From: a virus
Lineage: Duplodnaviria; Heunggongvirae; Uroviricota; Caudoviricetes
IMG/VR virus record: IMGVR_UViG_3300033747_000014
Strand: one strand, 5' to 3'
DNA: 64,000 nt
The notes beneath the pieces were generated by a model. It searched no databases and was not told the DNA's origin. It saw only the letters and a list, made by a program, of their open reading frames with translations. Made by a program: the position numbers and the translations under genes. Below, in pieces: positions 4,509 through 53,814 of this stretch (position 1 is the first letter of the stretch; every line of letters begins with the position of its first letter).

Positions 4509-5081
4509 ATGGAGGATAATAATTTTGTTGATAATACAGGTCATTTAATGGTTGACATTGAAACAATGGGTATAGGTGCTAATACACCAATAACTAGCAT
4601 AGGTGCTGTTGAATTTAGTATGACTAGTGGTAAGACATTCAGAGAGTTTTACATGCCAGTATCATTAAAAAGTTCTATGAATTTAGGTACTAAACCAGAT
4701 CCAAATACCATTTTATGGTGGTTAAAACAATCTGATGAAGCACGAAAAACAATTACAGATGTAAAGGGTTATCATATTAAGTTGGTTCTTAAAGAGTTTA
4801 GAGAATTTATTCAAAAACTAAACCCAGAAAATTTACAAGTTTGGGGAAATTCAAATAGATTTGATTTGGGTATAATTGCTAATTCATATGAATTATTGGG
4901 GCAAGATTTACCTTGGAAACATACTCTTGAAAGAGATGTTAGAACATTAGTATCATTTAAACCACAAATAAAATCAAAAGTCTTGAATAATTTTGAAGGA
5001 ATTAAACATCATCCAATTTCTGATTGTAAAAATCAAATTAAATATTGTTCTGAGATATATAGAAAAATAATGTTAAAATAA
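4509..5081 (+). CDS. DEDDh-type 3'-5' exonuclease (DnaQ/RNase T-like)
   Basis: Exo I motif LMVDIETMG, C-terminal HHPISDCK (H-x4-D Exo III). Confidence 0.6.
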   Translation: MEDNNFVDNTGHLMVDIETMGIGANTPITSIGAVEFSMTSGKTFREFYMPVSLKSSMNLGTKPDPNTILWWLKQSDEARKTITDVKGYHIKLVLKEFREFIQKLNPENLQVWGNSNRFDLGIIANSYELLGQDLPWKHTLERDVRTLVSFKPQIKSKVLNNFEGIKHHPISDCKNQIKYCSEIYRKIMLK

Positions 5082-5309: not shown

Positions 5310-6170
5310 ATGAGAAAAAGTATTTTTGGATTGATTATGTTGGCAATGGTTGCCATGTTTACATTTAGTTCATGTGGTTATGAACGTATTGATGCTGGTC
5401 ATGTCGGCATAAAAGTTAACCTTTATGGTAATGATAAGGGTGTTGATGATGTTACTGAAGTAACTGGTGCTGTTTGGTATAATCCATTTAGAACCAAGAT
5501 TTTTGAAACACCTACATATGTTCAAAATGCTATTTGGACGGCAAATAAAACAGAAGGTAGTGAGAGTAATGAAGAATTTAGATTAACAACTAAAGACGGT
5601 ATGGAGATTGCCATTGATGTTAGTTTGAATTATTTGGTTCCTGCTGATAATGCAGTAACAATCTTTAAGAAATATCGTAAACCGTTGGATGTTGTAGCAA
5701 ATACTGTACTTCGTAATTATACTCGTGATGGATATAACAGTGCTGCTTCAGAATTTACGGCTGAAGAAGTATATTCTAATCGTAATGAGTTTAAAGCGGT
5801 TGCTGATAGTTTGGTAACTAATATTTTAGAAAGTGAGGGTTTTCAGGTTGAAAAATTGGTTTTAGTAAATTCAATTAGACTACCAAATTCAATTAAAGAA
5901 AGTATTGAAAGAAAAATTCAGGCTAGACAAATTGCATTGCAAAAACAAATGGAATTGGAACAAGCACAAGCTGATGCAGATAAAAAGATTGAAAAGGCAC
6001 GTGGAGAAGCTGAATCAATGCGTATTCAAGCAGATGCTGAAAGGTATGCATATGAGCAAAAGCAACGTGCTCTTACTAAATTGCTTGTTCAACAACAGTT
6101 TATTGAAAAATGGGATGGTGCATTACCCACATATGGTGCAGTGCCCGAACTATTTAAAGGTATTCAATAA
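5310..6170 (+). CDS. SPFH/band-7 (prohibitin-like) lipoprotein
   Basis: Signal peptide plus lipobox FSSC. Band-7 core followed by Ala/Glu/Gln-rich coiled coil. Confidence 0.65.
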   Translation: MRKSIFGLIMLAMVAMFTFSSCGYERIDAGHVGIKVNLYGNDKGVDDVTEVTGAVWYNPFRTKIFETPTYVQNAIWTANKTEGSESNEEFRLTTKDGMEIAIDVSLNYLVPADNAVTIFKKYRKPLDVVANTVLRNYTRDGYNSAASEFTAEEVYSNRNEFKAVADSLVTNILESEGFQVEKLVLVNSIRLPNSIKESIERKIQARQIALQKQMELEQAQADADKKIEKARGEAESMRIQADAERYAYEQKQRALTKLLVQQQFIEKWDGALPTYGAVPELFKGIQ

Positions 6171-6677: not shown

Positions 6678-7112
6678 ATGTTGAGTGATAAACAAGAAAA
6701 GGATTATTTAAATGGCTTTAAAAAAATATTAAATAATTATATTGGTGAAGAATATAATCATGGGATATTAATGCATTTATTAATAATGTTTAAAATTTTC
6801 TTGAAGAATTTTATACATGATTCTGATAAAATCATAATGTTTAATACTGATAGGAATATTGAATCTTTTGAAGATAGTATAAGTATAATTGAAAACGGTG
6901 GGTTTAAACCTATAGGTGTATCACAAATTTATCTTGAAGATGTATTTATCTTTGAAACAGAAGAAGAAGCGGAAAGGGCTTATAATACCTTAGATAAAGA
7001 AACCAATATGATTTCTGCTTTCTGGTATAGTAAATATAATTTTTTAGATGAAGTTATTAAATATGAGAAGGAATATGATAATAAATCAAAAGTAAAAATT
7101 ATATGGTTATGA
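6678..7112 (+). CDS. hypothetical protein
   Basis: 144-aa ORF. Confidence 0.35.
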   Translation: MLSDKQEKDYLNGFKKILNNYIGEEYNHGILMHLLIMFKIFLKNFIHDSDKIIMFNTDRNIESFEDSISIIENGGFKPIGVSQIYLEDVFIFETEEEAERAYNTLDKETNMISAFWYSKYNFLDEVIKYEKEYDNKSKVKIIWL

Positions 7113-7663
7113 GAATAGATAAGAAATATTCACATGTTCAAGATATTAGAAATATAGATTGGAAAAAAATAAACAATATAAAAATATATTCAATTCTAAA
7201 TCATAAACAAACAAATCATAAATATGATAAGGATAAACCATATTCACATCATCTAAAAATGGTTTATGGGTTTGGTTTGAAATATAATTATTTATTGGAT
7301 GATGATGAGTTATTTCTAGCATTGTCTGCTTGTTGGAGCCATGACTTGATCGAGGATTGTAGAGTTAATTATAATGATCTAAAATCCATGTTCGGTGAAG
7401 AAATCGCAGAAATTGTTTATTCTTTAACCAATGAGAAGGGTCGTAATAGGAAAGAAAGAGCAAATAGAAAATATTATCAAGGTATAATGGAAAATAATAT
7501 TTCAACATTTGTTAAAGTATGTGATAGATTAGCAAATATGACTTATTCTAAGGATAGTGGTTCTACAATGTATAATAAATATAAAAAAGAAAACAATGAA
7601 TTCATAGATTTATTATTTAAATATAGATTTTATGATATGTTTGTTGAATTAAAAAGATTGTAA
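7103..7663 (+). CDS. HD-domain (p)ppGpp hydrolase-like protein (SpoT/Mesh1-type small alarmone hydrolase)
   Basis: HHL...ALSACWSHDLIEDC...FGEEIAEIVYSLTNEK matches the RelA/SpoT HD hydrolase signature HDxxED...FG..VA.LV..LT. Confidence 0.5.
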   Translation: MVMRIDKKYSHVQDIRNIDWKKINNIKIYSILNHKQTNHKYDKDKPYSHHLKMVYGFGLKYNYLLDDDELFLALSACWSHDLIEDCRVNYNDLKSMFGEEIAEIVYSLTNEKGRNRKERANRKYYQGIMENNISTFVKVCDRLANMTYSKDSGSTMYNKYKKENNEFIDLLFKYRFYDMFVELKRL

Positions 7664-14460: not shown

Positions 14461-15675
14461 ATGTTGAAAGCTATTAAAATAAGATTATACCCTAATAATG
14501 GTCAAGAGATTTATATGAATAAACTTCTTGGTTCTTATAGATTTGTATATAATCAATCTCTTAATTTTGCAATTCAACAATATAAAGAAGATAAAAAATC
14601 TGTAAATATTAAGATATTAGGTAATTTTTTATTTCAAAATCTTTTAAAAAATGAAGAACTTCACTTTCTTAATGAACACAATACTAAAGTATTAAATCAA
14701 ACACTAATAAATCTATTAGATTCATATAAAAGATTTTTTATTAATGGAAATGGATTTCCTAAATTTAAATCGAAAAATAATAATCAACAATCTTGCAGGT
14801 TCCCTGCACAAGCAATTAGTAAAAATAATGATTATGAATCAGGAAGATTAACATTAACTAAACAATTAAAGAATCTAAAATTTAGATGTTCAAAACAATA
14901 TAAAAAACAATTAAATGAATCAATAGTTAAATCAGCAACGTTAACTAAAACTAAATCTAATAAATATTATCTATCTATATTAGTAGAAACTGAATTAAAT
15001 AAACAATTACCAGAATCTAATAATATTATTGGTATTGATTTAGGAATTAAAGATTTTATTATCACTTCCGAAGGTGAAACCTTCGACAATATTAAAATCA
15101 AACGAAACAATCAAAAGAAGATTGCTAAATTACATAGAAAATTAAGTAGAAAGAAAAAAGGAAGTAATAATAGAAACAAGGCAAAAATTAAATTAGCAAA
15201 ATATTATGAAAAACTAAACAATAAGAAAGAATATTATTTACATAAAATTAGCAATAAATTACTAAACGAAAACCAAGTTATAGTAATGGAGTCTTTAAGT
15301 GTAAGTAATATGGTTAAGAATCATAAATTAGCTAAATCTTTACAAGAACTTAGTTTATATAGATTTAAGGAAATCTTAAGATATAAATCTAGTTGGTATG
15401 GAAGAGATTTAGTAGAAATAGATAGATGGTTTCCTTCAAGTAAATTATGTAATAACTGTGGATATAAGAATAATGGTTTGACTTTAAAGGATAGGACATG
15501 GATATGTCCAGAATGTAGTAAAAGTCATGATCGAGATATTAATGCAGCAATAAACATAAAGAAAGAGGGAATAAAGATATTAACAAATAAAGTACCTGAT
15601 AGTATCGGGGAATTAACGCTTCAGGAGAGTAGTCTGTTAGGATCTCGAAGAATGAAGAAGAATAATTTTCTATAA
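14461..15675 (+). mobile_element. tnpB: IS200/IS605-family TnpB (OrfB) RNA-guided nuclease gene, copy 1
   Basis: 404 aa. RuvC-I IGIDLGIKDF, RuvC-II VIVMESLSV, zinc ribbon CNNCGYKN...CPECSKSHDRDINAAINI with RuvC-III Asp. No adjacent tnpA. Confidence 0.8.
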
Positions 15676-15925: not shown

Positions 15926-15999
15926 GTGCTTGTAGTTTAATTGGTAAAACCCCATACTTTTAATATGTGAGAGTACAGGTTCGAATCCTGTCGGGCACA
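15926..15999 (+). tRNA. tRNA-Lys (anticodon TTT)
   Basis: Acceptor GTGCTTG/CGGGCAC (two G:T wobbles), D-stem GTTT/AAAC, anticodon loop CTTTTAA, T-arm ACAGG-TTCGAAT-CCTGT. Confidence 0.65.
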
Positions 16000-16006
16000 C
16001 TTTTTT

Positions 16007-16079
16007 GAAACAGTAACTCAGTTGGTAGAGTGTTAGATTGAAGATCTGATTGTCGTAGGTTCGATCCCTACCTGTTTCA
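16007..16079 (+). tRNA. tRNA-Phe (anticodon GAA)
   Basis: Acceptor GAAACAG/CTGTTTC, D-arm ACTC-AGTTGGTA-GAGT, anticodon loop TTGAAGA, T-arm GTAGG-TTCGATC-CCTAC. Confidence 0.7.
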
Positions 16080-17632: not shown

Positions 17633-18025
17633 ATGACAATTCAAGAACAAGTAAAAAAAGACATGATTAATGCAATGAAAAATAAAGAGACTGACAAGGT
17701 TTCTTTACTTAAAGTCCTTATGGGTGAGTTTAGTCGTGTCGGTAAAGAGTTAACAGATGAGCAAGCGATCAAACAAATTAGATCTATGTTTGAAAATGCT
17801 AAACAAATGAATAATCAATTTGAAGTTGATATTTTAAATAAATATTTACCTCAAATGTTGGATGAAGAAGAAACAAGAAAGATTGTTCTTGGTATCATAG
17901 AAACTCAAAATTGCTCTTCTATGAAAGATATGGGTAAAGTGATGGGTGGACTAAAAAAACACTCTAAATCGACTCAAATTGATAATAAATTGGCTAGCAA
18001 TATTGTTAAAGATATATTGAAATAA
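17633..18025 (+). CDS. GatB/YqeY-domain protein
   Basis: 130 aa. N-terminal MTIQEQVKKDMINAMKNKETDKVSLLKVLMGEF matches the YqeY pattern (E-x-L-K-x-AMK..D......LR....). Confidence 0.55.
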   Translation: MTIQEQVKKDMINAMKNKETDKVSLLKVLMGEFSRVGKELTDEQAIKQIRSMFENAKQMNNQFEVDILNKYLPQMLDEEETRKIVLGIIETQNCSSMKDMGKVMGGLKKHSKSTQIDNKLASNIVKDILK

Positions 18026-18032
18026 AATACTA

Positions 18033-18080
18033 TTTATGCTTGCAGGATTAAAATATTTGTTTTATATTTGCAAGCATAAA
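18033..18080 (+). promoter_or_regulatory. TATATTTG promoter box bracketed by a perfect 12-bp inverted repeat (candidate operator) ahead of the tRNA cluster
   Basis: TTTATGCTTGCA (18033-18044) and TGCAAGCATAAA (18069-18080) flank TATATTTG at 18063-18070. Confidence 0.45.
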
Positions 18081-18084
18081 TAAC

Positions 18085-18158
18085 GCAGAATGTAGCTTAA
18101 TTGGTTTAAAGCATCTGATTTCCAATCAGAGGAAGCGGTTCAAGTCCGACATTCTGCT
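18085..18158 (+). tRNA. tRNA-Gly (anticodon TCC)
   Basis: Acceptor GCAGAAT/ATTCTGC, anticodon arm TCTGA-TTTCCAA-TCAGA, T-loop TTCAAGT with a weak T-stem. Confidence 0.6.
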
Positions 18159-18169
18159 CAAAAATATTT

Positions 18170-18241
18170 GCTTCGATGGCTCAACGATAGAGCAACTGGC
18201 TGTTAACCAGTAGGTTATAGGTTTGAATCCTATTCGAAGCG
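18170..18241 (+). tRNA. tRNA-Asn (anticodon GTT)
   Basis: Acceptor GCTTCGA/TCGAAGC, D-stem GCTC/GAGC, anticodon arm ACTGG-CTGTTAA-CCAGT, T-arm ATAGG-TTTGAAT-CCTAT. Confidence 0.7.
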
Positions 18242-18243
18242 CA

Positions 18244-18437
18244 AAATTGATTGGGTGTGCAGTGAAAGCAAATAATAGCGCAATTGTATGTGAGGTGGGT
18301 TCAACTCCTGTTTTAATAAAATCCGTTTGGTGGATGCCAAGTATCTGATAACACATCATAACCCTCTGCCGATGCATCGTAAAAGTTTAATAAAGCAGTA
18401 CATAGTTGGATGTAACGGGTTTCCAACCAATCAATTT
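18244..18437 (+). ncRNA. structured ~194-nt RNA with 11-bp terminal helix and an internal T-arm-like element (candidate Y-RNA/YrlA-like or highly unusual tRNA)
   Basis: AAATTGATTGG (18244-18254) is the exact reverse complement of CCAATCAATTT (18427-18437). The element fills the gap between tRNA-Asn and tRNA-Thr. Internal GGTGGGTTCAACTCC T-loop-like motif and GATGCATC palindrome. No cloverleaf can be drawn. Confidence 0.4.
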
Positions 18438-18440
18438 AAT

Positions 18441-18514
18441 GCCGACATAGCTTTAATTGGTAGAGCATCTGATTTGTAATCAGAGGGTTGGGGGTTCGAC
18501 TCCCTCTGTCGGCT
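18441..18514 (+). tRNA. tRNA-Thr (anticodon TGT)
   Basis: Acceptor GCCGACA/TGTCGGC, anticodon arm TCTGA-TTTGTAA-TCAGA, T-arm GGGGG-TTCGACT-CCCTC. Confidence 0.7.
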
Positions 18515-18521
18515 CAAATAT

Positions 18522-18597
18522 TGCGGAGTAGCTGGAGGGGTTCCAGTCCAGTCTCATAAGCTGGGGTACGTGGGTTCAAATCCCACCTCCGCTACCA
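18522..18597 (+). tRNA. tRNA-Met (anticodon CAT; 1:72 mismatch, possibly initiator-like) with encoded CCA
   Basis: D-arm CTGG-AGGGGTT-CCAG, anticodon arm CCAGT-CTCATAA-GCTGG, T-arm GTGGG-TTCAAAT-CCCAC. Acceptor pairs 2-7 with a T:T at 1:72. Followed by ACCA. Confidence 0.55.
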
Positions 18598-18600
18598 TAA

Positions 18601-18672
18601 GTCCCTGTAGTTTAACGAATAGAATCAGAGGTTTCTACCCTCTAGGTATAGGTTTGATTCCTATCGGGGACA
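18601..18672 (+). tRNA. tRNA-Arg (anticodon TCT)
   Basis: Acceptor GTCCCTG/CGGGGAC, anticodon arm AGAGG-TTTCTAC-CCTCT, T-arm ATAGG-TTTGATT-CCTAT. Confidence 0.65.
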
Positions 18673-18749
18673 CTAATTAAAAATCTAACAATTATGAAAA
18701 GGATAAAAGAAAGGGCATGTGTTTTTTAGGTAATTAAAACTTAAAAAAC

Positions 18750-19061
18750 ATGGTAAAAAAAAGTAAAAAGATTGTAGAAACAACCACTAATCGTAAAGTA
18801 TTTAATCGTGCTTATAAAGAATATGTTAGTGGTAAGAATGGTGATTGTCCACGTTGTAGATATCATAAATGTGAAAATTATGAGGGTAAGTATTATGGTG
18901 GGTATTCTGATTATAACAGAATTACATATCCAAGTTGGAAATTAGTTTCCAAAAATCGTAAACAATGGATGAAAAAACCTATGAATATTGAAGCAGATTA
19001 TAATAATTATAGAAATGAAAAATATGTCCGATTTAAATTCAAAAGGGGTAAAAATTTCTAA
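18750..19061 (+). CDS. hypothetical Cys-rich protein
   Basis: 103 aa with CPRCRYHKC motif. Overlapping ORF 18988..19197 probably starts internally (~19024). Confidence 0.3.
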   Translation: MVKKSKKIVETTTNRKVFNRAYKEYVSGKNGDCPRCRYHKCENYEGKYYGGYSDYNRITYPSWKLVSKNRKQWMKKPMNIEADYNNYRNEKYVRFKFKRGKNF

Positions 19062-19197
19062 TCAAGTAAGATTTTGTATTGATAATGATATTTATATTGG
19101 TGAAGTTGTACAAATCAATGATGATAATGTAGATATTATAACTTATATGGGTATGATTAAAGGTATTCCAATTAATATTCTAAATGAAGTGAATTAA

Positions 19198-19677
19198 ATG
19201 GGATATAGGAAATTCAACAAGGATGCATATGATGCATTTGATATGAGTAGTAAATTACAACTGGTCAAGATTATTGAAAAGAATAGTCCTTATAAATTAA
19301 ATGATGATTTAGATATAGAACGATATAAGGATGGGGATGTTGAATTCATATTTAATAATAAGAAAGTTCTTTTTGAAAATGAAGTAAGAAGGAATTTTGA
19401 TGATATTGTCAGTATTTACAAAACAATCCATATCCCAATTAGGAAAAAAGATACTCCTGCTAATTTTTATATTGTTTGGAAAGAAGATTTATGTCAATTT
19501 ATTTTGATAGACCGGAAGACAATTCAAAAGTATAAAAATAAACCAATAAGGGTAAAATGTAATAATGAAATGAATTATGATGAAGAGTATGTTGAGGAAT
19601 TTGTTGATATACCTAAATCAGAAACCCAATGGTATTTAGTTGGTAAAGAATTTAAATTAAAAAAGTTAGAATATTAA
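19198..19677 (+). CDS. hypothetical protein
   Basis: 159-aa ORF. Confidence 0.35.
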   Translation: MGYRKFNKDAYDAFDMSSKLQLVKIIEKNSPYKLNDDLDIERYKDGDVEFIFNNKKVLFENEVRRNFDDIVSIYKTIHIPIRKKDTPANFYIVWKEDLCQFILIDRKTIQKYKNKPIRVKCNNEMNYDEEYVEEFVDIPKSETQWYLVGKEFKLKKLEY

Positions 19678-19714
19678 CAAAATTTAACATTAAATTACTT
19701 GGTTATTAAAAATA

Positions 19715-19735
19715 ATACCTTTATATTTGCAGTAT
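19715..19735 (+). promoter_or_regulatory. TATATTTG promoter box upstream of vWA gene
   Basis: TATATTTG at 19722-19729, ~50 nt upstream of ATG 19781. Confidence 0.45.
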
Positions 19736-19780
19736 TGAAATTATAAATATATTAATTGTTTAATCTTAAAAATTAGAAAG

Positions 19781-21502
19781 ATGTTCGACAGCAAAAGAGA
19801 AACTTTGTTTACAAAAGACGATGTTAAAAACAACAAAACATCTGTGAAAAATGGATTCCTTAATCAAGGAATGAAAGAATCGTCTATGACGACTGAATTT
19901 GGTAATGGTGCAGTAAAATACACTACCACCAATGATGATTTTGTAGATCAATTTGGTTTGATTTCAAATTATCGTAATCCAAGGGAATTTTCAGAAATTT
20001 CTAAAGATATGAGTATTCTTTGGGGTGTAAATCCTAAAGATGCTATTAAATTGGCTTTTTATATTCGTATGATTAGTCGAAAAACTCAAATTTTTGATGG
20101 TACTACAACTGAAAAGGTTCAAATCGGTCAAGGTTTGAAGCATGAAGGTATTATGAGAATGATTTGGCTTGCTGTTAATCATCCTGACGAATTTTGGAAT
20201 AATGCATATTTATATGTTGCCATTTCAAGTTGGAAAGATATTATTCAAATGTTGTCATACGACTTGCAATATAATGGTTGGGATGAAAGGAAATTGGATT
20301 GGAACAAAATGGGTAAATTAATCCTTAGTGGATTGGAAAACCCTAATACAACCAATCTTGTTAGAAAATATCTTCCAACTATTAAATCAAATAGTAAATG
20401 TAAGACTTTGGAAGCACAAGCTGATAATATTATTGGTAAATGGTTTGCAAACATTCTATTTAAAGGTGAAAATGATTCATATGCAAAATATAGGAAAGTT
20501 AAATCATCTGGTACTGCACACGAATGGCAAAAATTGATTAGTCAGGGTAAAATGCTTGATATTAATTTTGATACTGTTCATGGTCGTGCATTATCACTAA
20601 TGGTTAGTAGTAAATTCATTAATAATAATGGTCTGGGTGCTAAGTTTGATGAATGGCTTGATAAACAACCAATAATGAAATTTACTGGATATGTTTATGA
20701 ATTGTTTAAACCATTGATGAATAATTTCAATGTTGATCTTAGGAATAAGAAAGTAATCAATAAGCAATTCAAAATGCTTGTTGATCAAGTCAAGGAACAA
20801 ACAGATGTAAACAGTTCATTTATTGCTGTTCTTGATACTAGTGCTAGTATGGGTGGTTCTGTTAGCGGTTTAAACATATCTGCTATGCATGTAGCTAAAT
20901 CAATTGGTATTTATTTTAGTGAACTGTTGGAAGGAACATTCAAAAATCATTGGATTGAATTTCATAGTGAAGCTAAAATGAGACAATGGAAAGGTGAAAC
21001 ACCAGTAGATAAATATATTAATGATAATAGTAGTTATGTCGGTAGTACTAACTTCTTAGATGTTGCCAGAGTATTTATAGATATTAAAAATAAAGGTGTT
21101 TCAGAAGATGAATTTCCTACTGGTATTGTTTGTATTAGTGATGGGAATTTTAATCAAGCGAATGATTATGGATACATGAGTCGTAAGAATGGTAGTCATG
21201 AAACAAATACTAAGCATTTTAAAGAAATGTTGTTGAGTGCTGGATTTACGCAAGAATTTGTGGATAATTTTAAAATTGTTCTGTGGGATATTCCAAATAA
21301 TTTCTATGGTGGTGAAATTGAATCAAAATTTGAAGACTTTGCTGATGCGCCAAATCTTTATTATATGAGTGGTTTTGACCCAAGTGCTTTGAGTTTCCTG
21401 CTTGGTTCTGTCGACCAAAAAGACAAACCAACACCTAAGAATGCAAGAGAGTTGTTTGAAGCAGCAATGGATCAAGAGATTTTGAATTTTATTAATATTT
21501 AA
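19781..21502 (+). CDS. vWA-domain protein with helical N-terminal region (Ro60/Rsr TROVE-like architecture, putative)
   Basis: 573 aa. MIDAS motif VLDTSASMGG near residue 345 then a vWA-like region. N-terminal ~340 aa alpha-helical. Size and domain order match Ro60-type proteins. Sequence match to TROVE not verifiable by eye. Confidence 0.4.
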   Translation: MFDSKRETLFTKDDVKNNKTSVKNGFLNQGMKESSMTTEFGNGAVKYTTTNDDFVDQFGLISNYRNPREFSEISKDMSILWGVNPKDAIKLAFYIRMISRKTQIFDGTTTEKVQIGQGLKHEGIMRMIWLAVNHPDEFWNNAYLYVAISSWKDIIQMLSYDLQYNGWDERKLDWNKMGKLILSGLENPNTTNLVRKYLPTIKSNSKCKTLEAQADNIIGKWFANILFKGENDSYAKYRKVKSSGTAHEWQKLISQGKMLDINFDTVHGRALSLMVSSKFINNNGLGAKFDEWLDKQPIMKFTGYVYELFKPLMNNFNVDLRNKKVINKQFKMLVDQVKEQTDVNSSFIAVLDTSASMGGSVSGLNISAMHVAKSIGIYFSELLEGTFKNHWIEFHSEAKMRQWKGETPVDKYINDNSSYVGSTNFLDVARVFIDIKNKGVSEDEFPTGIVCISDGNFNQANDYGYMSRKNGSHETNTKHFKEMLLSAGFTQEFVDNFKIVLWDIPNNFYGGEIESKFEDFADAPNLYYMSGFDPSALSFLLGSVDQKDKPTPKNARELFEAAMDQEILNFINI

Positions 21503-25367: not shown

Positions 25368-26018
25368 TTAATCAATACCAATAAAAAGATCAAATAAATC
25401 ACCAGATGAAATTGTATCATCATCTTTTACTTCATCATTATTATTAGGTTCAAAATCATTATCAATATCGTCTTCAATATTATTTATCTTGGCTCTTTCC
25501 TCTTCTTGAATAGAAGCAATAATTTTATATAGTTCACCATTACAAATATTAAAACCTTTCTTTAAGTATCTAACCATTCTACTAGTAGTAGATAAAGGGT
25601 ATGTTATCTTATTAATCATTAATTGTCTCTTTGCAAGATCAATAAATGATGTATCTCCAAAATACACATCATCCTTATCAACAGCAAACATTGAAACAGT
25701 GAAATCAAAATTATTAATGGTTTCTTTTGGATCTTTAAAATATTTTTTAACCAAATCAAAAGTTTTCTTTTTATAAAGAACTTTCATACCATTATCAGAC
25801 TCCCATTTAATCTCAGCATCTTTACCTCTAAAAAACTTTTCAGCTTTTTTATATTCATCTTCATTGGGGAAGAATATATCAATATCTGTTTTTACAGGAA
25901 CACCCATAAAATAATCTCTTACAGAACCACCAGCGATCCAACAATTAATTTCTTCATTTATTAATTCTGTTAGGATCACTTCTTTAAATTTCTTTATACA
26001 ATTATCTATTTGTATCAT
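25368..26018 (-). CDS. pol-beta superfamily nucleotidyltransferase, CCA-adding-enzyme head-like
   Basis: IAGGSVRDYFMGVPVKTDIDIFF carries the GGxVRD...DxD signature of tRNA nucleotidyltransferase/poly(A) polymerase heads. At 216 aa it is only a head domain. Confidence 0.5.
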   Translation of the reverse strand: MIQIDNCIKKFKEVILTELINEEINCWIAGGSVRDYFMGVPVKTDIDIFFPNEDEYKKAEKFFRGKDAEIKWESDNGMKVLYKKKTFDLVKKYFKDPKETINNFDFTVSMFAVDKDDVYFGDTSFIDLAKRQLMINKITYPLSTTSRMVRYLKKGFNICNGELYKIIASIQEEERAKINNIEDDIDNDFEPNNNDEVKDDDTISSGDLFDLFIGID

Positions 26019-34155: not shown

Positions 34156-35463
34156 ATGAAATTAAAAAAACCAGAAAATCAAAATTATTCAGCAATAGTT
34201 GTTGAATTGAATCGTTTTGTAGATTTAGAAAACTGTGATAATGTGAAAGCTGCCATTATCATGGGTAATCAAGTGATAGTATCAAAAGATACACAAGAGG
34301 GTGAAATAGGTGTTTATTTTCCTGTTGAATCACAATTATCACATGAATTTGTATCAAATAACAATCTTTATAGACATTCAGATAATAATGTAGATATAAA
34401 TAAAAGAGGTTATTTTGAAGATAATAGACGTGTTCGATGTGTAAAATTTAGAGGTAATAAATCTGAGGGTATGTATATTCCTTTAGAGTCTCTTAAATTT
34501 GTTTTGGGTGATAAAATAAAAGAACTCAAAGTTGGTGATGAGTTTGATGAGTTAGAGGGTGTAAATATTTGTAAAAAATATGTTATTAAAAAGAAAGAAT
34601 CAAATCCAACATCAAAAAAGAATAAAGGTAAGAAAGCAAAAGAAAGTAAAATTATTGAAAATCAGTTTAGATTTCATGATGATACTGTTCAATTGTACAG
34701 GAATTTACACAAAGTAAATTTGGATGATTATATCTCTATATCTTATAAGATCCACGGAACATCCAGCATTAGTAGTAAAGTGTTATGCAAGAAGAAATTA
34801 AATATTGTTGAGAAAGCATTGAAAACTTTAGGAGTAAATATTGTTGATAAACAGTATGATAATCTTTATGCTTCAAGAAGAGTTATTAAAAATGAGGATT
34901 TAAACCCTCAAGCTGAACATTATTATGGTGAAGATATTTGGGGTCTTGCAAATGAAAGATTGAAAGATGTTCTTTTAGATGGAATGACTATCTATTATGA
35001 AATTGTTGGTTTTACACCAACAGGTACACCAATTCAAAAAGGATTTGATTATGGGTGTAGGGATGGTCATTTTGAAATTTATGTTTATAGAATCACTTTT
35101 ACAAATCCATCTGGAAATGTTTTTGAGTTCTCTTTTAAACAAATGGAAGAATGGTGTAAATCCAGAGATATAAAAACTGTACCATTGTTGTTTTATGGAA
35201 CAGTTAAAGATCTCTTCATAAAAAATCATAAAGAAATTCCAGAAGATGATCGTGATTGGAGAGATACATTCTTACAAATATTGAAAGACAATTATAATGA
35301 AAAGAATTGTTATATGTGTTTAAATCCTGTTCCAGAAGAAGGTTGTGTTGTTAGGATTGAAAAATTGGATTTTGAAGGATATAAATGCAAATCTGAAAGA
35401 TTTTATAATTGGGAAACAAAGATGTTAGATAAAGGTGAATCTGATATTGAAAGTGAAAATTAA
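34156..35463 (+). CDS. ATP-dependent RNA ligase (Rnl2/Rnl5-like nucleotidyltransferase domain with N-terminal extension)
   Basis: Motif I SYKIHGTSS (KxHGT), motif IV EGCVVRIEKL, motif V EGYKCKSERF. Confidence 0.5.
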   Translation: MKLKKPENQNYSAIVVELNRFVDLENCDNVKAAIIMGNQVIVSKDTQEGEIGVYFPVESQLSHEFVSNNNLYRHSDNNVDINKRGYFEDNRRVRCVKFRGNKSEGMYIPLESLKFVLGDKIKELKVGDEFDELEGVNICKKYVIKKKESNPTSKKNKGKKAKESKIIENQFRFHDDTVQLYRNLHKVNLDDYISISYKIHGTSSISSKVLCKKKLNIVEKALKTLGVNIVDKQYDNLYASRRVIKNEDLNPQAEHYYGEDIWGLANERLKDVLLDGMTIYYEIVGFTPTGTPIQKGFDYGCRDGHFEIYVYRITFTNPSGNVFEFSFKQMEEWCKSRDIKTVPLLFYGTVKDLFIKNHKEIPEDDRDWRDTFLQILKDNYNEKNCYMCLNPVPEEGCVVRIEKLDFEGYKCKSERFYNWETKMLDKGESDIESEN

Positions 35464-42704: not shown

Positions 42705-43466
42705 TTTGTGATTCTCTTTCAGAATAAGTTTATTACTACTTTTGGAATGCTTGTCAATAACTATGAATGTGTTGTGATTCCCCTTTGGAATGAGGTTATT
42801 ACTACTATCCAGATAACAACGGTTTACCAAGTCTTTGTTGTGATTCCCTTTCGGAATGAGGTTATTACTATTATTTGTGCTTCTCTGTTGTGTTCCCTGT
42901 TCGTTGTGATTCCCTTTCAGAATAAGTCTATTACTATTATATTCATTCTGGAGGTGCTTATAAGCATCGTTGTGATTCCCTTTCAGAATAAGTCTATTAC
43001 CATTTTTTTAGCCAAAACGGCCTTAGAATCGTCTGTTGTGATTCCCTTTCAGAATAAGTCTATTACCATTCGCAATTCCAGCACCTGCAAGGATTCCACC
43101 GTTGTGATTCCCTTTCAGAATAAGTCTATTACCATTTTCTGTAAATGCACCACCTAAAGAATTTGTGTTGTGATTCCCTTTCAGAATAAGTCTATTACCA
43201 TTATTAGAATTATTAGAAATGTGGGATGAATAGTTGTGATTCCCTTTCAGAATAAGTCTATTACCATTTCCACCATACAGTTTAAAGAATGAAGTATTGT
43301 TGTGATTCCCTTTCAGAATAAGTCTATTACCATTTTTTGATTTACTATATTTTTTAAATAGTCTGTTGTGATTCCCTTTCAGAATAAGTCTATTACCATT
43401 TAGAGGGTGTTATGTCCGAGCCGGATGATGGTTGTGATTCCCTTTCAGAATAAGTCTATTACCATT
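42705..43466 (-). CRISPR. CRISPR array 1: 12 repeats of 36 nt, 11 spacers of 30 nt; leader at high-coordinate end
   Basis: Plus-strand repeat GTTGTGATTCCCTTTCAGAATAAGTCTATTACCATT at 42903, 42969, 43035, 43101, 43167, 43233, 43299, 43365, 43431. Three progressively degenerate copies at 42705, 42771, 42837. Repeats abut conserved ATACCCACATATAAAT. Confidence 0.95.
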
Positions 43467-43573
43467 ATACCCACATATAAATCATTGTTAATGAATAACA
43501 TATTATAAAATTTTGATGAAAAAAATGATTAAATATATGTGATTGGTATGTTATCATGATGAAAATTTTAATT

Positions 43574-44278
43574 CTACTTATATAAATGATTAAATTGTGT
43601 TGTATGTATCACACCAAAACCAGAACCTGTTGATTGTCCAATACCATAATTATATATAGCTTCGGCAACCTTTCTATTTGTTTTAATTCTGATTTGACAA
43701 ATATTTGCACGATTTAAAACATTTTTACTATAAATATTTCTAACCTTATGGCTATTATGATTATCAATAACCAATTCAAAATCATTAAAGTTTAATTTAG
43801 AATCAATTTTTTTGAATTTATTAATAATTTGATTTTTCAAAGCATTAACAAGGTTAGAATCATTAAGAGTATAAAAATTTTCATTTGATTTCCCTTCATC
43901 ATGTTTTTTTAGAATAAACCCAGATGTTAAGGTTTTAAAATAGTTCCATCCATTATAGAATTGCTCTTGAATATAATCAACAGATTTAAAATCCATCCCA
44001 TATCCAATTGTTTTTGCTTCCATTGCTCCAATAAGAATTTTATTTAAAATCTCTTGGTCTGGTGATGTTACAATTAAATACCCACCATTTGGATAGTTAA
44101 TGTGTTTACCATTATCAACGATAACACCACCCTCTAATCTACTAATATTGTAGTTTGATACACCGTTATGATATTCATTATTATCACCAAAACATTTGGT
44201 GTGTATGAATGAATTAACAACGCTAAGGTTATTTGGTACTTTATCAGTATTTGGTGTAAAGTTTATTTTTAATCTCAT
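43574..44278 (-). CDS. cas6: Cas6-like RAMP protein (putative crRNA endoribonuclease)
   Basis: 234 aa. C-terminal glycine-rich loop GIGQSTGSGFGVI typical of Cas6/Cas5 RAMPs. Last gene of cas operon, adjacent to array leader. Confidence 0.5.
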   Translation of the reverse strand: MRLKINFTPNTDKVPNNLSVVNSFIHTKCFGDNNEYHNGVSNYNISRLEGGVIVDNGKHINYPNGGYLIVTSPDQEILNKILIGAMEAKTIGYGMDFKSVDYIQEQFYNGWNYFKTLTSGFILKKHDEGKSNENFYTLNDSNLVNALKNQIINKFKKIDSKLNFNDFELVIDNHNSHKVRNIYSKNVLNRANICQIRIKTNRKVAEAIYNYGIGQSTGSGFGVIHTTQFNHLYK

Positions 44279-44292: not shown

Positions 44293-45189
44293 TTAAAATT
44301 TCATTCTTTCATCTGAAATATCAGATACTTTAGTAAATTCATCAATAGACACAGCAGTATCATTTTTTATTGTATCAATCCAAACCAAACCATTATCAAG
44401 TAATGTGGCACTACCTTTGGAATTAGTGTTAAGCACATCAATCATTTCATCAGTAACAGGGACTAATATTTGTCCATGTAAAGATGCAAAATTATCAACA
44501 CCATTTACAGTTGTTCTCGCCAACCTATTTCGTGTACTAGTCATTTTTGATGGATCAGGTTGTTCAAAACTACCGTTTTTATATCGACCAAAAGCATATA
44601 TCAATGCACCACAACCACCTAAATTAGTAATTTTATTATAAAACTCTAATCTACGATTGGTTTCAACATTTTGAACATCATCAACAATTTTCATAAATGG
44701 TTTGGTTTTTGCATCAAAACCAAGACAATAATTTAAATCAGTTACAAATGTATTAAATTTTTCTGAATTATCAATATAATCCTGAACCATTCTCCAATTT
44801 AATGTTATCATCATTGACCAAGCATTATCAAGTGCTTTGTTTGTTTGAATAAATTCCATATGGTAAACATCTTTCTCCAAGAGTTTATTATGAAATTTAG
44901 GTGTATCAATTCTTATGTATGAATTTTGTGCTGCATTAAAATAAACCTCATTACGTTCATAAAATACTTTTCTATTACTAGGTACAGGACGTTCGTTGAA
45001 CAAAACATGTAACATGTTTGATATTTGATGTACTGTTATCGGTTCAACAAAGGGTTCAATATCTTTCCTTTTCTTTATAGTTGAGTTATAAGAGGTGAAG
45101 GAAATATCCTTACACCTCTTGTTATCTGAAACTCTATCTTTTCTGAAAAGTTTTGCATCTTTAAAATTAAGAATCAAATACTTACTCAT
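44293..45189 (-). CDS. Cascade subunit candidate (Cas7- or Cas5-like), unclassified
   Basis: Start trimmed to MSKYLILNF to avoid a 65-nt overlap. Contains GGCGALIYAFGRYKNG. Position matches a backbone or Cas5 subunit. Confidence 0.4.
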   Translation of the reverse strand: MSKYLILNFKDAKLFRKDRVSDNKRCKDISFTSYNSTIKKRKDIEPFVEPITVHQISNMLHVLFNERPVPSNRKVFYERNEVYFNAAQNSYIRIDTPKFHNKLLEKDVYHMEFIQTNKALDNAWSMMITLNWRMVQDYIDNSEKFNTFVTDLNYCLGFDAKTKPFMKIVDDVQNVETNRRLEFYNKITNLGGCGALIYAFGRYKNGSFEQPDPSKMTSTRNRLARTTVNGVDNFASLHGQILVPVTDEMIDVLNTNSKGSATLLDNGLVWIDTIKNDTAVSIDEFTKVSDISDERMKF

Positions 45190-46237: not shown

Positions 46238-46282
46238 TTTTAAAAAATTTAAGTTAATAAAATATTAATTGTTTTTGATTAC

Positions 46283-46349
46283 GATACAAATATATAAAAC
46301 TTTTTTGAAACAACAAAAAAAATTATACAAATATATAAAACTTTTTTGT
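46283..46349 (-). promoter_or_regulatory. tandemly duplicated TATATTTG promoters (minus strand) driving the cas operon
   Basis: Two copies of ATACAAATATATAAAACTTTTTTG, with CAAATATA at 46287-46294 and 46328-46335. Confidence 0.5.
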
Positions 46350-53692: not shown

Positions 53693-53814
53693 TGGAGATG
53701 GTAGGATTCGAACCCACGACCACGTGCTCCCAATGCAAGTTTTTGATATGCTGTTAATAATCTTAAAAACAGATTATATTAAAATACGTGCTCTACCACT
53801 GAGCTACATCTCCA
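53693..53814 (-). tRNA. tRNA gene with ~49-nt internal insertion (putative intron); anticodon unresolved (TAA/TTA/TTT candidates)
   Basis: Minus strand: acceptor GGAGATG ... CATCTCC-A, D-arm GCTC-AGTGGTA-GAGC, T-arm GTGGG-TTCGAAT-CCTAC. A 49-nt AT-rich insert between D-arm and T-arm contains a 7-bp hairpin ATAATCT-GTTTTTA-AGATTAT and is bounded by GAGCACGT direct repeats. Confidence 0.55.

What the first reader, a model, noticed from the sequence alone, without database searches (positions are those of the whole stretch)
18244..21502. Candidate Y-RNA-like structured RNA inside a tRNA cluster plus a Ro60/Rsr-like vWA protein 1.3 kb downstream
The 194 nt between tRNA-Asn and tRNA-Thr are closed by a perfect 11-bp helix formed by their extreme ends, AAATTGATTGG and CCAATCAATTT. 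They also contain a T-arm-like GGTGGGTTCAACTCC and a GATGCATC palindrome. Bacterial and phage Y RNAs (YrlA) have exactly this terminal helix plus tRNA-like domain layout and are encoded near rsr. The 573-aa gene at 19781 has a C-terminal MIDAS (DTSASM) vWA domain after a ~340-aa helical region, the Ro60 layout. Together with the RNA ligase and nucleotidyltransferase this would make an RNA quality-control or repair module.
Basis: partly seen in the sequence, partly recalled or inferred. Interest (0 to 1): 0.65.

Follow-up and report, generated by a model that had tools for sequence, protein, structure and literature searches.

The report
Ro-like phage protein, orphan tRNA-operon RNA
A large phage carries a ring-shaped Ro60-like RNA-binding protein next to its tRNA genes, plus a strongly conserved 198-base non-coding RNA wedged between two tRNAs; the protein call holds up, but the RNA is not a recognisable Y RNA, and better partner candidates for the protein lie elsewhere.

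Summary
An 11-bp helix closes the 198-nt tRNA-Asn/tRNA-Thr spacer (2 of 200,000 shuffles do as well). The 573-aa ORF has an intact MIDAS vWA domain.

**RNA:** a real conserved element, but not a demonstrable Y RNA.
- It recurs between the same tRNAs in two related phages.
- It is better conserved than its flanks (97.5% vs ~89%; core 90-94% vs ~78%).
- The T-arm and palindrome lie in a 114-nt block that one relative lacks.
- It has no Rfam YrlA or Y_RNA match and no GNCGAA motif. The positive controls worked.

**New:** in more distant relatives, DUF2828 genes are accompanied by arrays of YrlA-like RNAs with strong covariation. Models built from them miss the spacer. They do hit the gene's own start (19773-19846, weak but codon-supported) and, weakly, the region of a 121-nt tRNA-shaped RNA (53693-53813, minus strand).

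**Verdict:** partly supported. A Ro-like RNP module is likely; the spacer's role in it is open.

The parts
18063..18070 (+). TATATTTG, a Bacteroidota-type -7 promoter motif (TAnnTTTG) ahead of tRNA-Gly. It is the likely start of the Gly-Asn-spacer-Thr-Met-Arg transcript.
   Evidence: Read from the sequence. The same motif lies ahead of the 573-aa gene and ahead of the 121-nt RNA. Its promoter function is inferred from general knowledge of Bacteroidota promoters and was not tested.
18170..18242 (+). tRNA-Asn(GUU), the 5' neighbour of the spacer.
   Evidence: ARAGORN; Rfam tRNA 70.9 bits.
18243..18440 (+).
   Evidence: It has no tRNA or other Rfam match. Homologs lie between the same tRNAs in L240 729-932 and L235 4758-4846. 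It differs from L240 at only 5 of 198 positions, while the flanking tRNAs and genes are ~88-89% identical (binomial P 8e-6).
18244..18254 (+). 5' arm of the terminal helix (AAATTGATTGG).
   Evidence: It forms a perfect 11-bp helix with 18427-18437. The helix is kept in L235, with a U-A to U-G change plus a bulged C and one added A-U pair. It is kept in L240 with one U-U mismatch.
18243..18277 (+). 5' part of the conserved core.
   Evidence: 90% identical to L235, where coding DNA is 63-83% and intergenic DNA 78% identical.
18278..18391 (+). A 114-nt block present in the window and L240 and absent in L235, bounded by a TAATA direct repeat. It contains the T-arm-like sequence and the palindrome.
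   Evidence: Alignments. It is 113/114 identical to L240. On its own it folds worse than shuffles (z +1.66). No other copy exists in the window or in the loci.
18295..18311 (+). T-arm-like GUGGG-UUCAACU-CCUGU.
   Evidence: Read from the sequence. Rfam matches only the T-loop of tmRNA here, at 6.3 bits. In L240, U>C turns one G-U pair into G-C.
18370..18379 (+). CGATGCATCG palindrome.
   Evidence: Read from the sequence. It lies inside the 114-nt block. No function could be tested.
18392..18440 (+). 3' part of the conserved core, including a possible hairpin UACAU-AGUUGG-AUGUA and the 3' helix arm 18427-18437.
   Evidence: 94% identical to L235. With the 114-nt block removed, the core folds better than shuffles (z -2.82, 1 of 200 shuffles as good). 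The small hairpins are each broken by one substitution in L240, so the internal structure is unresolved.
18441..18515 (+). tRNA-Thr(UGU), the 3' neighbour. Its RNase P site would create the spacer RNA's 3' end.
   Evidence: ARAGORN and Rfam. The processing step is inferred.
19722..19729 (+). TATATTTG promoter-like motif ahead of the 573-aa gene.
   Evidence: Read from the sequence. Promoter function is inferred.
19773..19846 (+). An RNA element overlapping the gene's start codon: AAAG-AUGUUC-G-ACAGCAA ... AAACAU-CUG. It mimics the Y-like RNA unit found next to homologous genes.
   Evidence: Model R2 scores it 18.4 bits, E 0.029 on 14 kb, and E 0.14 on the whole window. The same layout occurs in L004, L005, L087-L089, L240 and many distant loci. 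Codon 4, when Ser, is AGC in 18 of 19 cases against 4.9% AGC elsewhere in these genes. The downstream in-frame ACA-UCU occurs 18 times. The closing stem is in both the MFE and centroid folds.
19781..21502 (+). The 573-aa Ro60-fold protein: an alpha-helical repeat domain of DUF2828 type (about residues 50-340) plus a vWA/MIDAS domain of DUF7788 type (about 345-560).
53693..53813 (-). A 121-nt tRNA-shaped RNA whose anticodon-loop region carries about 53 extra nt: a hairpin AUAAUCU/AGAUUAU followed by UAACAGCAUAU. This is the signature of the Y-like units in circularly permuted order. It is a better candidate partner for the Ro-like protein than the spacer.
   Evidence: Rfam tRNA 53.7 bits, not called by ARAGORN. 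Sequence. R2 gives a weak overlapping hit at 53644-53769, 23.4 bits, E 0.014. A similar RNA by eye, not formally aligned, lies at L089 3197-3305, 1.3 kb downstream of that phage's homologous gene. The permuted-unit reading is my own parse and has not been tested by covariation.

Best explanation
The locus holds two real things. Their link to each other is plausible but unproven.

1. The gene at 19781-21502 encodes a Ro60-like ring protein: a helical repeat toroid plus a MIDAS vWA domain. It belongs to the DUF2828/DUF7788 family, which large phages place beside their tRNA arrays. In other members of the family the gene is accompanied by tandem YrlA-like RNAs. These have a covarying closing stem, a conserved ACAGCAA loop motif and often a permuted tRNA-like domain. 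The gene's own start codon sits inside a copy of that RNA module. The most likely mechanism (inferred) is that the protein binds such modules on free RNAs, forming a Ro/Y-RNA-type particle that acts on tRNAs or tRNA fragments during infection. It would bind the same module on its own mRNA to limit its translation.

2. The 198-nt spacer is a conserved plus-strand non-coding RNA gene specific to this small phage clade. It is probably transcribed with the five tRNAs from the promoter-like motif at 18063. RNase P cutting at tRNA-Thr, and 3' processing of tRNA-Asn, would release it. Its 11-bp terminal helix would protect it. These steps are inferred.

The spacer occupies the same kind of slot that YrlA-like RNAs occupy in Bacillus phage Tsamsa and Shigella phage Sf17: inside the tRNA operon, flush against or close to the flanking tRNAs, on the gene's strand. 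It exists in a short and a long, T-arm-bearing form, as those RNAs do. It carries none of their sequence signatures. I therefore treat it as an orphan structured RNA that may be a functional analogue. I put the chance that it binds the Ro-like protein at about one in three.
For: **Protein**
- Fold.
- Family.
- tRNAs lie within 5 kb in 60 of 87 homolog loci.
- The gene is directly adjacent to tRNA arrays in Sf17, P100, Tsamsa and KP2025. P100 also has RtcB and an RNA ligase nearby.

**Y-like RNAs next to homologs**
- The motif CTGATAAG-N8-ACAGCAA occurs 33 times on the gene strand and 0 times on the other strand in 1.02 Mb.
- There are 50 distinct units.
- The closing stem pairs in 100% of cells, with compensatory changes at 7 of 8 pairs. 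Long units have 18 of 22 pairs with compensatory changes.
- Model R1 gives 107 hits, all on the plus strand.
- Rfam YrlA scores 40.1 and 34.3 bits in KP2025 and 37.2 bits in L014.
- R2 scores 54-64 bits in KP2025, Tsamsa and Sf17.

**Mimic at the gene start:**

**Spacer**
- Helix statistics.
- Elevated G+C.
- Homologs and conservation above the flanks.
- Two substitutions keep pairing only through G-U on the plus strand.
- The core folds better than shuffles.
Against: **Spacer**
- It has no significant match to YrlA, Y_RNA, R1 or R2 and no match to the motif pattern within 3 mismatches.
- Only three sequences exist, so no structure can be proven.
- Two substitutions in L240 break the two small predicted hairpins.
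- The 114-nt block folds worse than random.
- Phages with the protein but without the spacer exist (L236, L088, L089), so the two are not obligately coupled.
- Conservation higher than that of the adjacent tRNAs could also reflect recent lateral transfer.

**Protein and its RNA partners**
- There is no sequence-level link between its N-terminal domain and TROVE.
- RNA binding, processing and autoregulation are all inferred.
- The stem at the gene start cannot covary, because it is fixed by the Met-Phe codons.
Confidence: 0.55

Rival explanations
1. The spacer is the Y RNA of this phage's Ro-like protein. It would be a divergent YrlA-type RNA whose terminal helix and T-arm module bind the ring and tether it to a nuclease or to tRNA-handling enzymes.
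For: - It is on the same strand, 1.34 kb upstream of the gene, inside the 4-kb criterion of PMC4201824.
- It has a terminal helix and a T-arm-like hairpin.
- YrlA-like RNAs occupy equivalent inter-tRNA slots in Tsamsa (L094 3197-3328, starting 1 nt after tRNA-Glu) and Sf17 (L092 7076-7202).
- It has short and long forms, as the Y-like family does.
- It bears a faint resemblance to that family (UUGAUUGG ... AAAGCAAAU against YUGAYAAR ... ACAGCAAAU).
Against: - There is no covariance-model hit at any permissive threshold, while the positive controls work.
- There is no GNCGAA or ACAGCAA motif. The AAAGCAAAU stretch itself changes in L240, to AAAACAUAU.
- No closed acceptor-like hairpin follows the T-arm.
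- The T-arm is dispensable in L235.
- The protein occurs without this RNA in relatives.
Confidence: 0.3
2. The spacer, or at least its 114-nt block, is selfish or recently transferred DNA. It would be a miniature inverted-repeat or homing-type insertion in the tRNA operon with no RNA function. Its high identity between phages would reflect recent spread rather than selection.
For: - It has 11-bp terminal inverted repeats.
- It is present or absent among close relatives.
- The 114-nt block is bounded by a TAATA direct repeat and is 99% identical between phages that are about 11% diverged.
- It is more conserved than the flanking tRNAs.
- IS605/TnpB elements are active in this region.
- The block has poor predicted structure.
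Against: - There is a single copy in 64 kb, and no other copy in any locus or collection searched.
- It has no similarity to the IS ends.
- The deleted form in L235 is still conserved far above neutral (P 6e-4).
- The helix is maintained through a G-U change and a register shift.
- It is always found at the same site between the same two tRNAs.
Confidence: 0.2
3. The spacer is a stable by-product RNA of tRNA-operon processing with a function unrelated to the Ro-like protein. Possible roles are those of the two stable non-tRNA RNAs in the phage T4 tRNA cluster (recalled from my own knowledge), a decoy for a host tRNA-targeting nuclease, or a processing or spacing element.
For: - It lies flush against tRNAs on both sides, and its ends are closed by a helix.
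- It is strongly conserved.
- It is not obligately coupled to the protein gene.
Against: Nothing specific argues against it. It simply leaves the function unnamed. A pure processing spacer would not need 97.5% sequence conservation over 198 nt.
Confidence: 0.3
4. The spacer is decayed tRNA gene material or encodes a small protein.
For: - The T-arm-like sequence shares GTGGGTTCAA with the T-arm of the nearby tRNA-Met.
- In L236 a degenerate tRNA-Met copy sits between Asn and Thr.
- A 50-codon TTG ORF (18327-18479) and an 83-codon antisense ORF exist.
Against: - Conservation is well above neutral.
- There is no tRNA model hit even at E <= 10.
- Both ORFs run through tRNA genes and are not preserved in L235.
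Confidence: 0.07

Closest known systems
Ro60/Rsr (TROVE + vWA) proteins, including Thermus phage phiLo Ro60 (PDB 9L5Y/9KOP; PMC12135203)
   Same: - Phage-encoded.
- Relatives have YrlA-like RNAs encoded alongside on the same strand.
   Different: - There is no detectable sequence homology of the N-terminal domain to Pfam TROVE. Identity is about 10-12%.
- It belongs to the separate Pfam families DUF2828/DUF7788.
- It is consistently embedded in tRNA arrays.
- Its associated RNAs carry ACAGCAA rather than the (GN)CGAA motif.
- The gene's own 5' end mimics the RNA module.
YrlA (Rfam RF02553; Chen et al. 2014, PMC4201824), the tRNA-mimicking bacterial and phage Y RNAs
   Same: - For the spacer: a terminal helix made by the two ends, a T-arm-like hairpin in the 5' half, and a position within 4 kb and on the same strand as the Ro-like gene.
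- For the RNAs next to homologous genes in other phages: a real, sub-threshold YrlA match and the order T-arm, closed acceptor-like hairpin, D-arm.
   Different: The spacer gets no YrlA score at all. It lacks the GNCGAAN0-1G motif, has no acceptor-like hairpin stacked on the T-arm, and is 198 nt long with a dispensable 114-nt middle.
DUF2828/DUF7788 family (PHROG 850 'RNA-binding protein'; 'Ro-like RNA binding protein' in Mycobacterium phage annotations)
   Same: - The window protein is a member: DUF7788 at 41.8 bits (cutoff 27.1) and PHROG 850 at 5.9e-31.
- There are 2303 homologs at E <= 0.001 among the candidates found in the word-indexed protein search and 442 cultured-phage records.
   Different: The N-terminal DUF2828 match is below the Pfam cutoff in this protein (16.9 against 29 bits). 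This subclade (65% identity or more) mostly lacks free-standing canonical ACAGCAA units nearby; only L089 has them.
The two stable non-tRNA RNAs in the phage T4 tRNA gene cluster (recalled from my own knowledge, not checked here)
   Same: These are non-tRNA RNAs encoded inside a phage tRNA operon, presumably released by the tRNA-processing machinery. Their function is unknown.
   Different: No sequence relationship was tested. T4 has no DUF2828 gene that I know of.

Membership tests
YrlA / Y_RNA (Rfam RF02553, RF00019), applied to the 198-nt spacer | A match to the family covariance model | tested here: not met
   There is no YrlA or Y_RNA match at E <= 10 on 651 nt or on the 198 nt alone. Positive controls: YrlA scores 40.1 and 34.3 bits in Klebsiella phage KP2025 and 37.2 bits in L014, next to homologous genes.
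YrlA / Y_RNA, applied to the 198-nt spacer | GNCGAAN0-1G (CGAA) motif near the 5' end, in or beside the terminal stem (PMC4201824, PMC12135203) | tested here: not met
   There is no CGAA anywhere in 18243-18440 (sequence).
YrlA / Y_RNA, applied to the 198-nt spacer | A stem formed by the 5' and 3' ends | tested here: met
   An 11-bp perfect helix, 18244-18254 with 18427-18437. It is retained in L235 and L240.
YrlA / Y_RNA, applied to the 198-nt spacer | A tRNA-like domain in the order T-arm, closed acceptor-like hairpin, D-arm | tested here: inconclusive
   A T-arm-like hairpin is present (18295-18311; one G-U to G-C change in L240). No hairpin abuts it. The candidate D-like hairpins are weak, and one is broken in L240. 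The whole T-arm block is absent in L235.
YrlA / Y_RNA, applied to the 198-nt spacer | Encoded within 4 kb of the Ro gene on the same strand | tested here: met
   It ends 1.34 kb upstream of the gene start at 19781, on the same strand. In L240 the distance is 3.2 kb.
YrlA / Y_RNA, applied to the 198-nt spacer | Bound by the Ro protein | not testable with these tools
   This needs RIP, CLIP or EMSA.
DUF2828-associated Y-like RNA units (defined here; models R1 and R2), applied to the spacer | YUGAYAAR - covarying closing stem - ACAGCAA signature, and a model match | tested here: not met
   The pattern has 0 matches in the window with up to 3 mismatches. R1 with filters off does not hit the spacer. 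R2 with filters off hits only through the tRNA-Asn T-arm, at E 0.14. Neither model hits L235 or L240 inside the spacer.
DUF2828-associated Y-like RNA units, applied to the gene's own 5' end (19773-19846) | AAG - stem - ACAGCAA ... stem - CUG, with evidence of selection at the RNA level | tested here: met
   R2 scores 18.4 bits, E 0.029. The layout is conserved in 15 of 39 distinct gene starts. Codon 4 is AGC in 18 of 19 cases against a 4.9% background. Covariation cannot be tested because the stem is fixed by the Met-Phe codons.
Ro60 / TROVE proteins, applied to the 573-aa ORF | Sequence match to Pfam TROVE (PF05731) | tested here: not met
   No TROVE hit at E <= 0.01. Searches of PDB sequences with the protein and with a profile find nothing. 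A profile comparison against the TROVE protein of L237 aligns only the vWA part, at 74% probability.
Ro60 / TROVE proteins, applied to the 573-aa ORF | Fold: helical-repeat ring plus C-terminal vWA domain | tested here: met
   [not shown]
Ro60 / TROVE proteins, applied to the 573-aa ORF | MIDAS motif (DxSxS ... T ... D) in the vWA domain | tested here: met
   D352, S354, S356, T423 and D454 are invariant in 46 sequences.
DUF2828/DUF7788 (PHROG 850), applied to the 573-aa ORF | Profile matches above the thresholds | tested here: met
   DUF7788 scores 41.8 bits against a cutoff of 27.1. DUF2828 scores 16.9 bits, below its cutoff, but close homologs carry it. PHROG 850 scores 5.9e-31.
tRNA, or an intron of a neighbouring tRNA, applied to the spacer | A cloverleaf or model match, or neighbouring tRNAs left incomplete without it | tested here: not met
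   Both neighbours are complete, high-scoring tRNAs. There is no tRNA hit in the spacer at E <= 10.
Miniature inverted-repeat or IS-derived element, applied to the spacer | Multiple copies, target-site duplication, and similarity to an autonomous element | tested here: inconclusive
   There is a single copy in the window and in all loci, and no similarity to the TnpB element ends. A TAATA repeat flanks only the inner 114-nt block. The rest of the ~299-kb genome was not available.

The most novel reading that the evidence does not exclude
Phage DUF2828/DUF7788 proteins are a second, sequence-unrecognisable branch of Ro60. They build Ro/Y-RNA-type particles from RNAs encoded inside phage tRNA operons, and they throttle their own translation through a copy of the Y-RNA module wrapped around their start codon. 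In this phage the 198-nt Asn/Thr spacer RNA would be a new, non-YrlA class of partner RNA for that ring, alongside the 121-nt tRNA-shaped RNA at 53.7 kb.
Probability: 0.25. Interest if true: 0.78.

Novelty: new variant of a known kind. Interest (0 to 1): 0.6.

Why it matters
Ro60 and its Y RNAs are a conserved but still poorly understood RNA quality-control system.

**Scale of the phage branch.** Annotation pipelines file this family as DUF2828. It has 2303 homologs at E <= 0.001 among the candidates found in the word-indexed protein search and 442 cultured-phage records. It is tied physically to tRNA arrays and, in P100, to RtcB and an RNA ligase.

**What this work adds to the family.**
- It carries YrlA-like RNAs with abundant covariation.
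- Its own mRNA start mimics those RNAs, which gives a directly testable model: the protein binds ACAGCAA stem modules and regulates itself through one.
- Several cultured phages (Klebsiella KP2025, Shigella Sf17, Bacillus Tsamsa, Leptolyngbya Lbo-JY46) are available to test the model.

**The spacer itself.** It shows that phage tRNA operons hide further conserved non-tRNA RNAs that no current model recognises.

I found no paper linking DUF2828 to Y RNAs. That is an absence in the searchable library, not proof of novelty.

Tried and rejected
**Searches for more copies of the spacer**
- IMG/VR exact and terminal-repeat-anchored patterns found nothing.
- Cultured phages by blastn gave only tRNA hits.
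- One terminal-repeat-anchored scan each of JGI metagenomes and GTDB genomes gave 86 and 54 stretches. None has interior similarity to the spacer, so all are chance matches. These two capped scans would have been better spent on the conserved core, which I only identified later.
- nhmmer and blastn against all fetched loci found only the identical contigs L001 and L002, then L235 and L240.

**Readings of the spacer that were rejected**
- A tRNA, a pseudo-tRNA pair, or an intron of a neighbour.
- A small ORF. Both candidate ORFs run through tRNA genes.
- A derivative of the nearby TnpB element.
- A promoter inside the spacer. I saw no TAnnTTTG motif when reading the sequence by eye.

**Structure of the spacer**
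- Two alternative internal structures were tried (hairpin UACAU/AUGUA against pairing GUGUGC/GUACAU plus UUGGA/UCCAA). Each is contradicted by one of the few substitutions.

**Controls and artefacts**
- The Rfam control on Mycobacterium phage Aegeus was uninformative, with no hits. Later controls on L014 and KP2025 worked.
- Model R2 also scores the junction of two ordinary adjacent tRNAs (15941-16050). R2 hits that lack closing-stem and acceptor-hairpin pairing should be ignored.

**Protein sequence link**
- A profile comparison of the family against one TROVE protein aligned only the vWA domain.

Full report
**What is at the coordinates**

The window is an AT-rich (26% G+C) piece of a large phage. 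The exact 573-aa protein occurs on contigs of up to 299 kb. ARAGORN and Rfam find a plus-strand run of tRNA-Gly, tRNA-Asn, a 198-nt gap, then tRNA-Thr, tRNA-Met and tRNA-Arg at 18085-18673.

- The gap (18243-18440) is closed by a perfect 11-bp helix, 18244-18254 with 18427-18437. The helix starts about 2 nt after tRNA-Asn and ends 3 nt before tRNA-Thr.
- Such a helix appears in 2 of 200,000 shuffles. It is unmatched in 269 inter-tRNA gaps of related loci, where the next best is 8 bp.
- The T-arm-like GUGGG-UUCAACU-CCUGU (18295-18311) and the palindrome CGATGCATCG (18370-18379) are there.
- The spacer is 37% G+C, in the top 3% of windows.

The full 198 nt does not fold better than shuffles (z -0.37).

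**The protein**

- Pfam gives DUF7788 over residues 348-548 and a weak DUF2828 match, with no TROVE hit. PHROGs gives family 850, 'RNA-binding protein', at 5.9e-31.
- An AlphaFold model built from 46 homologs is confident (pLDDT 80, pTM 0.82).
- The eight best Foldseek PDB hits are all Ro60 or Rsr over the full length.
- The MIDAS residues are invariant.
- Sequence methods do not connect the N-terminal domain to TROVE.

The family is large. It has 2303 homologs at E <= 0.001 among the candidates found in the word-indexed protein search and 442 cultured-phage records, including Felix O1-like, P100-like, Campylobacter, Bacillus and Klebsiella phages. The Mycobacterium phage gene annotated 'Ro-like RNA binding protein' is itself DUF2828 plus DUF7788.

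**Genomic context of the family**

- tRNAs lie within 5 kb of the gene in 60 of 87 homolog loci.
- In Shigella phage Sf17, Listeria phage P100, Bacillus phage Tsamsa and Klebsiella phage KP2025 the gene directly abuts or sits inside the tRNA array. In P100, RtcB, an RNA ligase and a phosphohydrolase follow it.
- A related phage (L237, L238) carries a canonical Pfam-TROVE gene in the equivalent tRNA region.

**The spacer RNA: homologs**

Nothing similar turned up in IMG/VR, cultured phages, or terminal-repeat-anchored scans of JGI metagenomes and GTDB genomes. Walking out from the flanking genes found two relatives.

- *L240* (neighbouring ORF 84% identical) has tRNA-Asn, a 204-nt homolog, then tRNA-Thr.
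- *L235* (neighbouring YqeY gene 75% identical) has the same Gly-Asn-x-Thr-Met-Arg order, but x is only 89 nt. It keeps the 5' 35 nt and the 3' ~50 nt and lacks the middle 114 nt. In the window that middle block is bounded by a TAATA direct repeat and contains both the T-arm-like sequence and the palindrome.
- *More distant relatives* (L236, L237-L239) lack the element altogether. L236 still has the protein gene.

**The spacer RNA: conservation**

- Against L240, only 5 of 198 positions differ. The two flanking tRNAs (~89%), the protein gene (89.2%) and the next ORF (88%) are all less similar (P 8e-6).
- Against L235, the core is 90-94% identical, compared with 63-83% for coding DNA and 78% for intergenic DNA (P 6e-4).
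- The terminal helix survives in all three sequences. L235 has a U-A to U-G change, which is valid only for plus-strand RNA, plus a bulged C offset by an added A-U pair. L240 has one U-U mismatch.
- One T-stem G-U becomes G-C in L240.
- Each of the two small hairpins I could draw in the core is broken by one L240 substitution.
- The core alone folds well (z -2.8). The 114-nt block folds worse than random (z +1.7).

Three sequences cannot settle a structure.

**The spacer RNA: family tests**

Rfam at E <= 10 finds no YrlA or Y_RNA in the spacer. The CGAA motif that defines bacterial and phage Y RNAs (PMC4201824, PMC12135203) is absent. This negative is meaningful, because the same library scores YrlA next to homologous genes elsewhere, as described next.

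**An RNA family that does accompany these genes**

A scan for T-arms outside called tRNAs gave 250 on the gene strand. There were no T-arm motifs at all on the other strand. Inspecting them revealed a repeated unit:

YUGAYAAR - 6-7 nt - (W)A-CAGCAA - variable part - complement of the 6-7 nt - YUG

- The strict motif occurs 33 times on the gene strand and never on the other strand in 1.02 Mb.
- Fifty distinct units fall into three classes: short (62-77 nt), medium (with a T-arm) and long (130-156 nt). Long units run T-arm, closed acceptor-like hairpin, D-arm, which is the YrlA order.
- In 25 short units the closing stem pairs in 100% of cells, with compensatory changes at 7 of 8 pairs. Six of those pairs were imposed by my selection. 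The G-C/A-U alternation at the seventh (15 against 10, no mismatches) was not imposed.
- In 11 long units RNAalifold recovers the closing stem, T-arm, acceptor-like hairpin and D-arm, with compensatory changes at 18 of 22 pairs.
- A model of the short units (R1) finds 107 matches in 98 loci, all on the gene strand. Many end 3-5 nt before a tRNA.
- Rfam's YrlA model matches these RNAs below its gathering score but significantly: 40.1 and 34.3 bits over the full model in KP2025, 284-536 nt after the gene's stop, and 37.2 bits in L014.
- The long-unit model (R2) scores 54-64 bits in KP2025, Tsamsa (L094 3197-3328, starting 1 nt after tRNA-Glu and ending 23 nt before tRNA-Ile) and Sf17.

So the DUF2828 branch of Ro-like proteins has YrlA-like partner RNAs embedded in tRNA operons.

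**Applying this to the window**

Neither R1 (filters off, whole window) nor R2 (filters off, 10-24 kb; default filters, whole window) hits the spacer. The motif pattern has no match within 3 mismatches. R2's top hit, 15941-16050, is an artefact of two adjacent tRNAs. The other two hits are informative.

*The gene's own start, 19773-19846.*
- The sequence reads AAAG-AUGUUC-G-ACAGCAA ... AAACAU-CUG. The start codon is part of the closing stem.
- The same layout is present in the close relatives and in many distant ones.
- It is selected at the RNA level. Codon 4, when Ser, is AGC in 18 of 19 distinct genes, although AGC makes up 4.9% of Ser codons elsewhere in them. The 3' strand is almost always ACA-UCU in frame, at a variable distance from the start.
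- I read this as autoregulation by mimicry. That reading is inferred.

*The region of the 121-nt tRNA-shaped RNA at 53693-53813, minus strand.*
- Rfam calls it a tRNA at 53.7 bits, and ARAGORN does not call it.
- R2 gives a weak overlapping hit at 53644-53769 (E 0.014).
- Its anticodon-loop region carries a hairpin followed by UAACAGCAUAU. This is the unit's signature in circularly permuted order.
- A similar RNA by eye, not formally aligned, lies 1.3 kb downstream of the homologous gene in L089, next to canonical units.
- This parse is mine and rests on two sequences.

**Conclusion**

- The protein is a Ro60-fold RNA-binding protein of a known, widespread phage family.
- The idea that it works with structured, tRNA-like RNAs encoded in the tRNA operon is now supported for the family.
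It is not a member of YrlA, Y_RNA or the newly defined unit family, and its most tRNA-like part is dispensable in a relative.
- It may be a functional analogue, given its slot, strand, closing helix, and short and long forms. It may be an unrelated stable RNA. It may be a recently transferred insertion.

The RNA ligase (34156-35463) and the nucleotidyltransferase (25368-26018, minus strand) exist. They are distant and not co-oriented with the gene.

Noticed in passing
window 42901-43468 and 46432-46801 (arrays); 43574-44278 (-), 44293-46756 (-), 46904-49207 (-): This is a phage-encoded CRISPR-Cas locus. Two arrays have a ~36-nt repeat (GTTGTGATTCCCTTTCAGAATAAGTCTATTACCAT, period 66). They flank Cas6, three unassigned ORFs and a Cas3 HD-helicase.
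   Followed up: partly
window 53693-53813 (-); L089 3197-3305: A 121-nt tRNA-shaped RNA has its own TATATTTG promoter motif and about 53 extra nt in the anticodon-loop region, carrying a hairpin plus UAACAGCAUAU. It could be an intron-bearing tRNA (a possible UUU anticodon) or a non-permuted Y-like RNA. The L089 counterpart, similar by eye and not formally aligned, has a different 'anticodon'.
   Followed up: partly
L014 6824-7225; L090 6655-7015; L091 5580-5919; L092 7076-7202; L094 3197-3328 and about 60 other loci: Tandem YrlA-like RNA units (YUGAYAAR - stem - ACAGCAA ... stem - YUG) lie next to DUF2828 genes and inside phage tRNA arrays. They score below Rfam's YrlA gathering score, so annotation misses them.
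   Followed up: yes
window 14461-15675 (+) and 60521-61744 (-); L240 2369-4117: There are two IS605-type TnpB genes in the window, one of them between tRNA sub-clusters. In L240 a complete TnpA plus TnpB element sits between the tRNA cluster and the Ro-like gene.
   Followed up: no
L235 4669-4757; L237 3309-3397; L238 3304-3392; L239 544-632: An 89-nt tRNA-Asn(GUU) has a long, stem-forming variable arm, which is unusual for Asn. In L235 it replaces the ordinary 73-nt tRNA-Asn. In L237 it lies directly after a canonical TROVE gene.
   Followed up: no
L028 8179-8272, L032 8159-8251, L034 8109-8203 and 12 similar loci: A conserved 92-95-nt tRNA-like RNA occurs in ~175-kb phages. It has a UUCUAGG loop (a CUA amber-suppressor anticodon) in what ARAGORN takes for the variable arm, plus an extra covarying hairpin between the D-arm and that arm.
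   Followed up: partly
L240 405-654; L237 3618-3863 (also L238, L239): A ~245-nt conserved non-coding element starts at a TAATATTTG promoter-like motif, lies immediately upstream of tRNAs, and has no Rfam match. It is absent from the window.
   Followed up: no
L237 1675-3243: A related phage (YqeY gene 64% identical) encodes a canonical Pfam-TROVE Ro60 homolog inside its tRNA region. Both Ro branches therefore occur in this phage group.
   Followed up: partly
L237 1283-1414 (also L238): This is another tRNA-shaped RNA (acceptor GGGGAGA/UCUCCCC, good T-arm) with a ~55-nt internal insertion. The insertion contains GUAAAGCAAUAAUCG, which resembles the spacer's GAAAGCAAAUAAUAGCG.
   Followed up: no
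window 4509-5081, 5310-6170, 7103-7663, 17633-18025, 25368-26018 (-), 34156-35463: Several RNA-related genes are scattered around the tRNA region: an Rv2179c-like 3'-5' exoribonuclease, a Band-7/SPFH protein, an HD-domain protein, a YqeY-like protein just before tRNA-Gly, a poly(A)-polymerase-head nucleotidyltransferase and an RNA ligase. A Band-7 gene also lies 0.5 kb upstream of the Ro-like gene in Mycobacterium phage Aegeus.
   Followed up: partly
window 18031-18079: An inverted repeat TTTATGCTTGCA ... TGCAAGCATAAA spans the promoter-like motif ahead of tRNA-Gly. It may be an operator or an upstream terminator.
   Followed up: no
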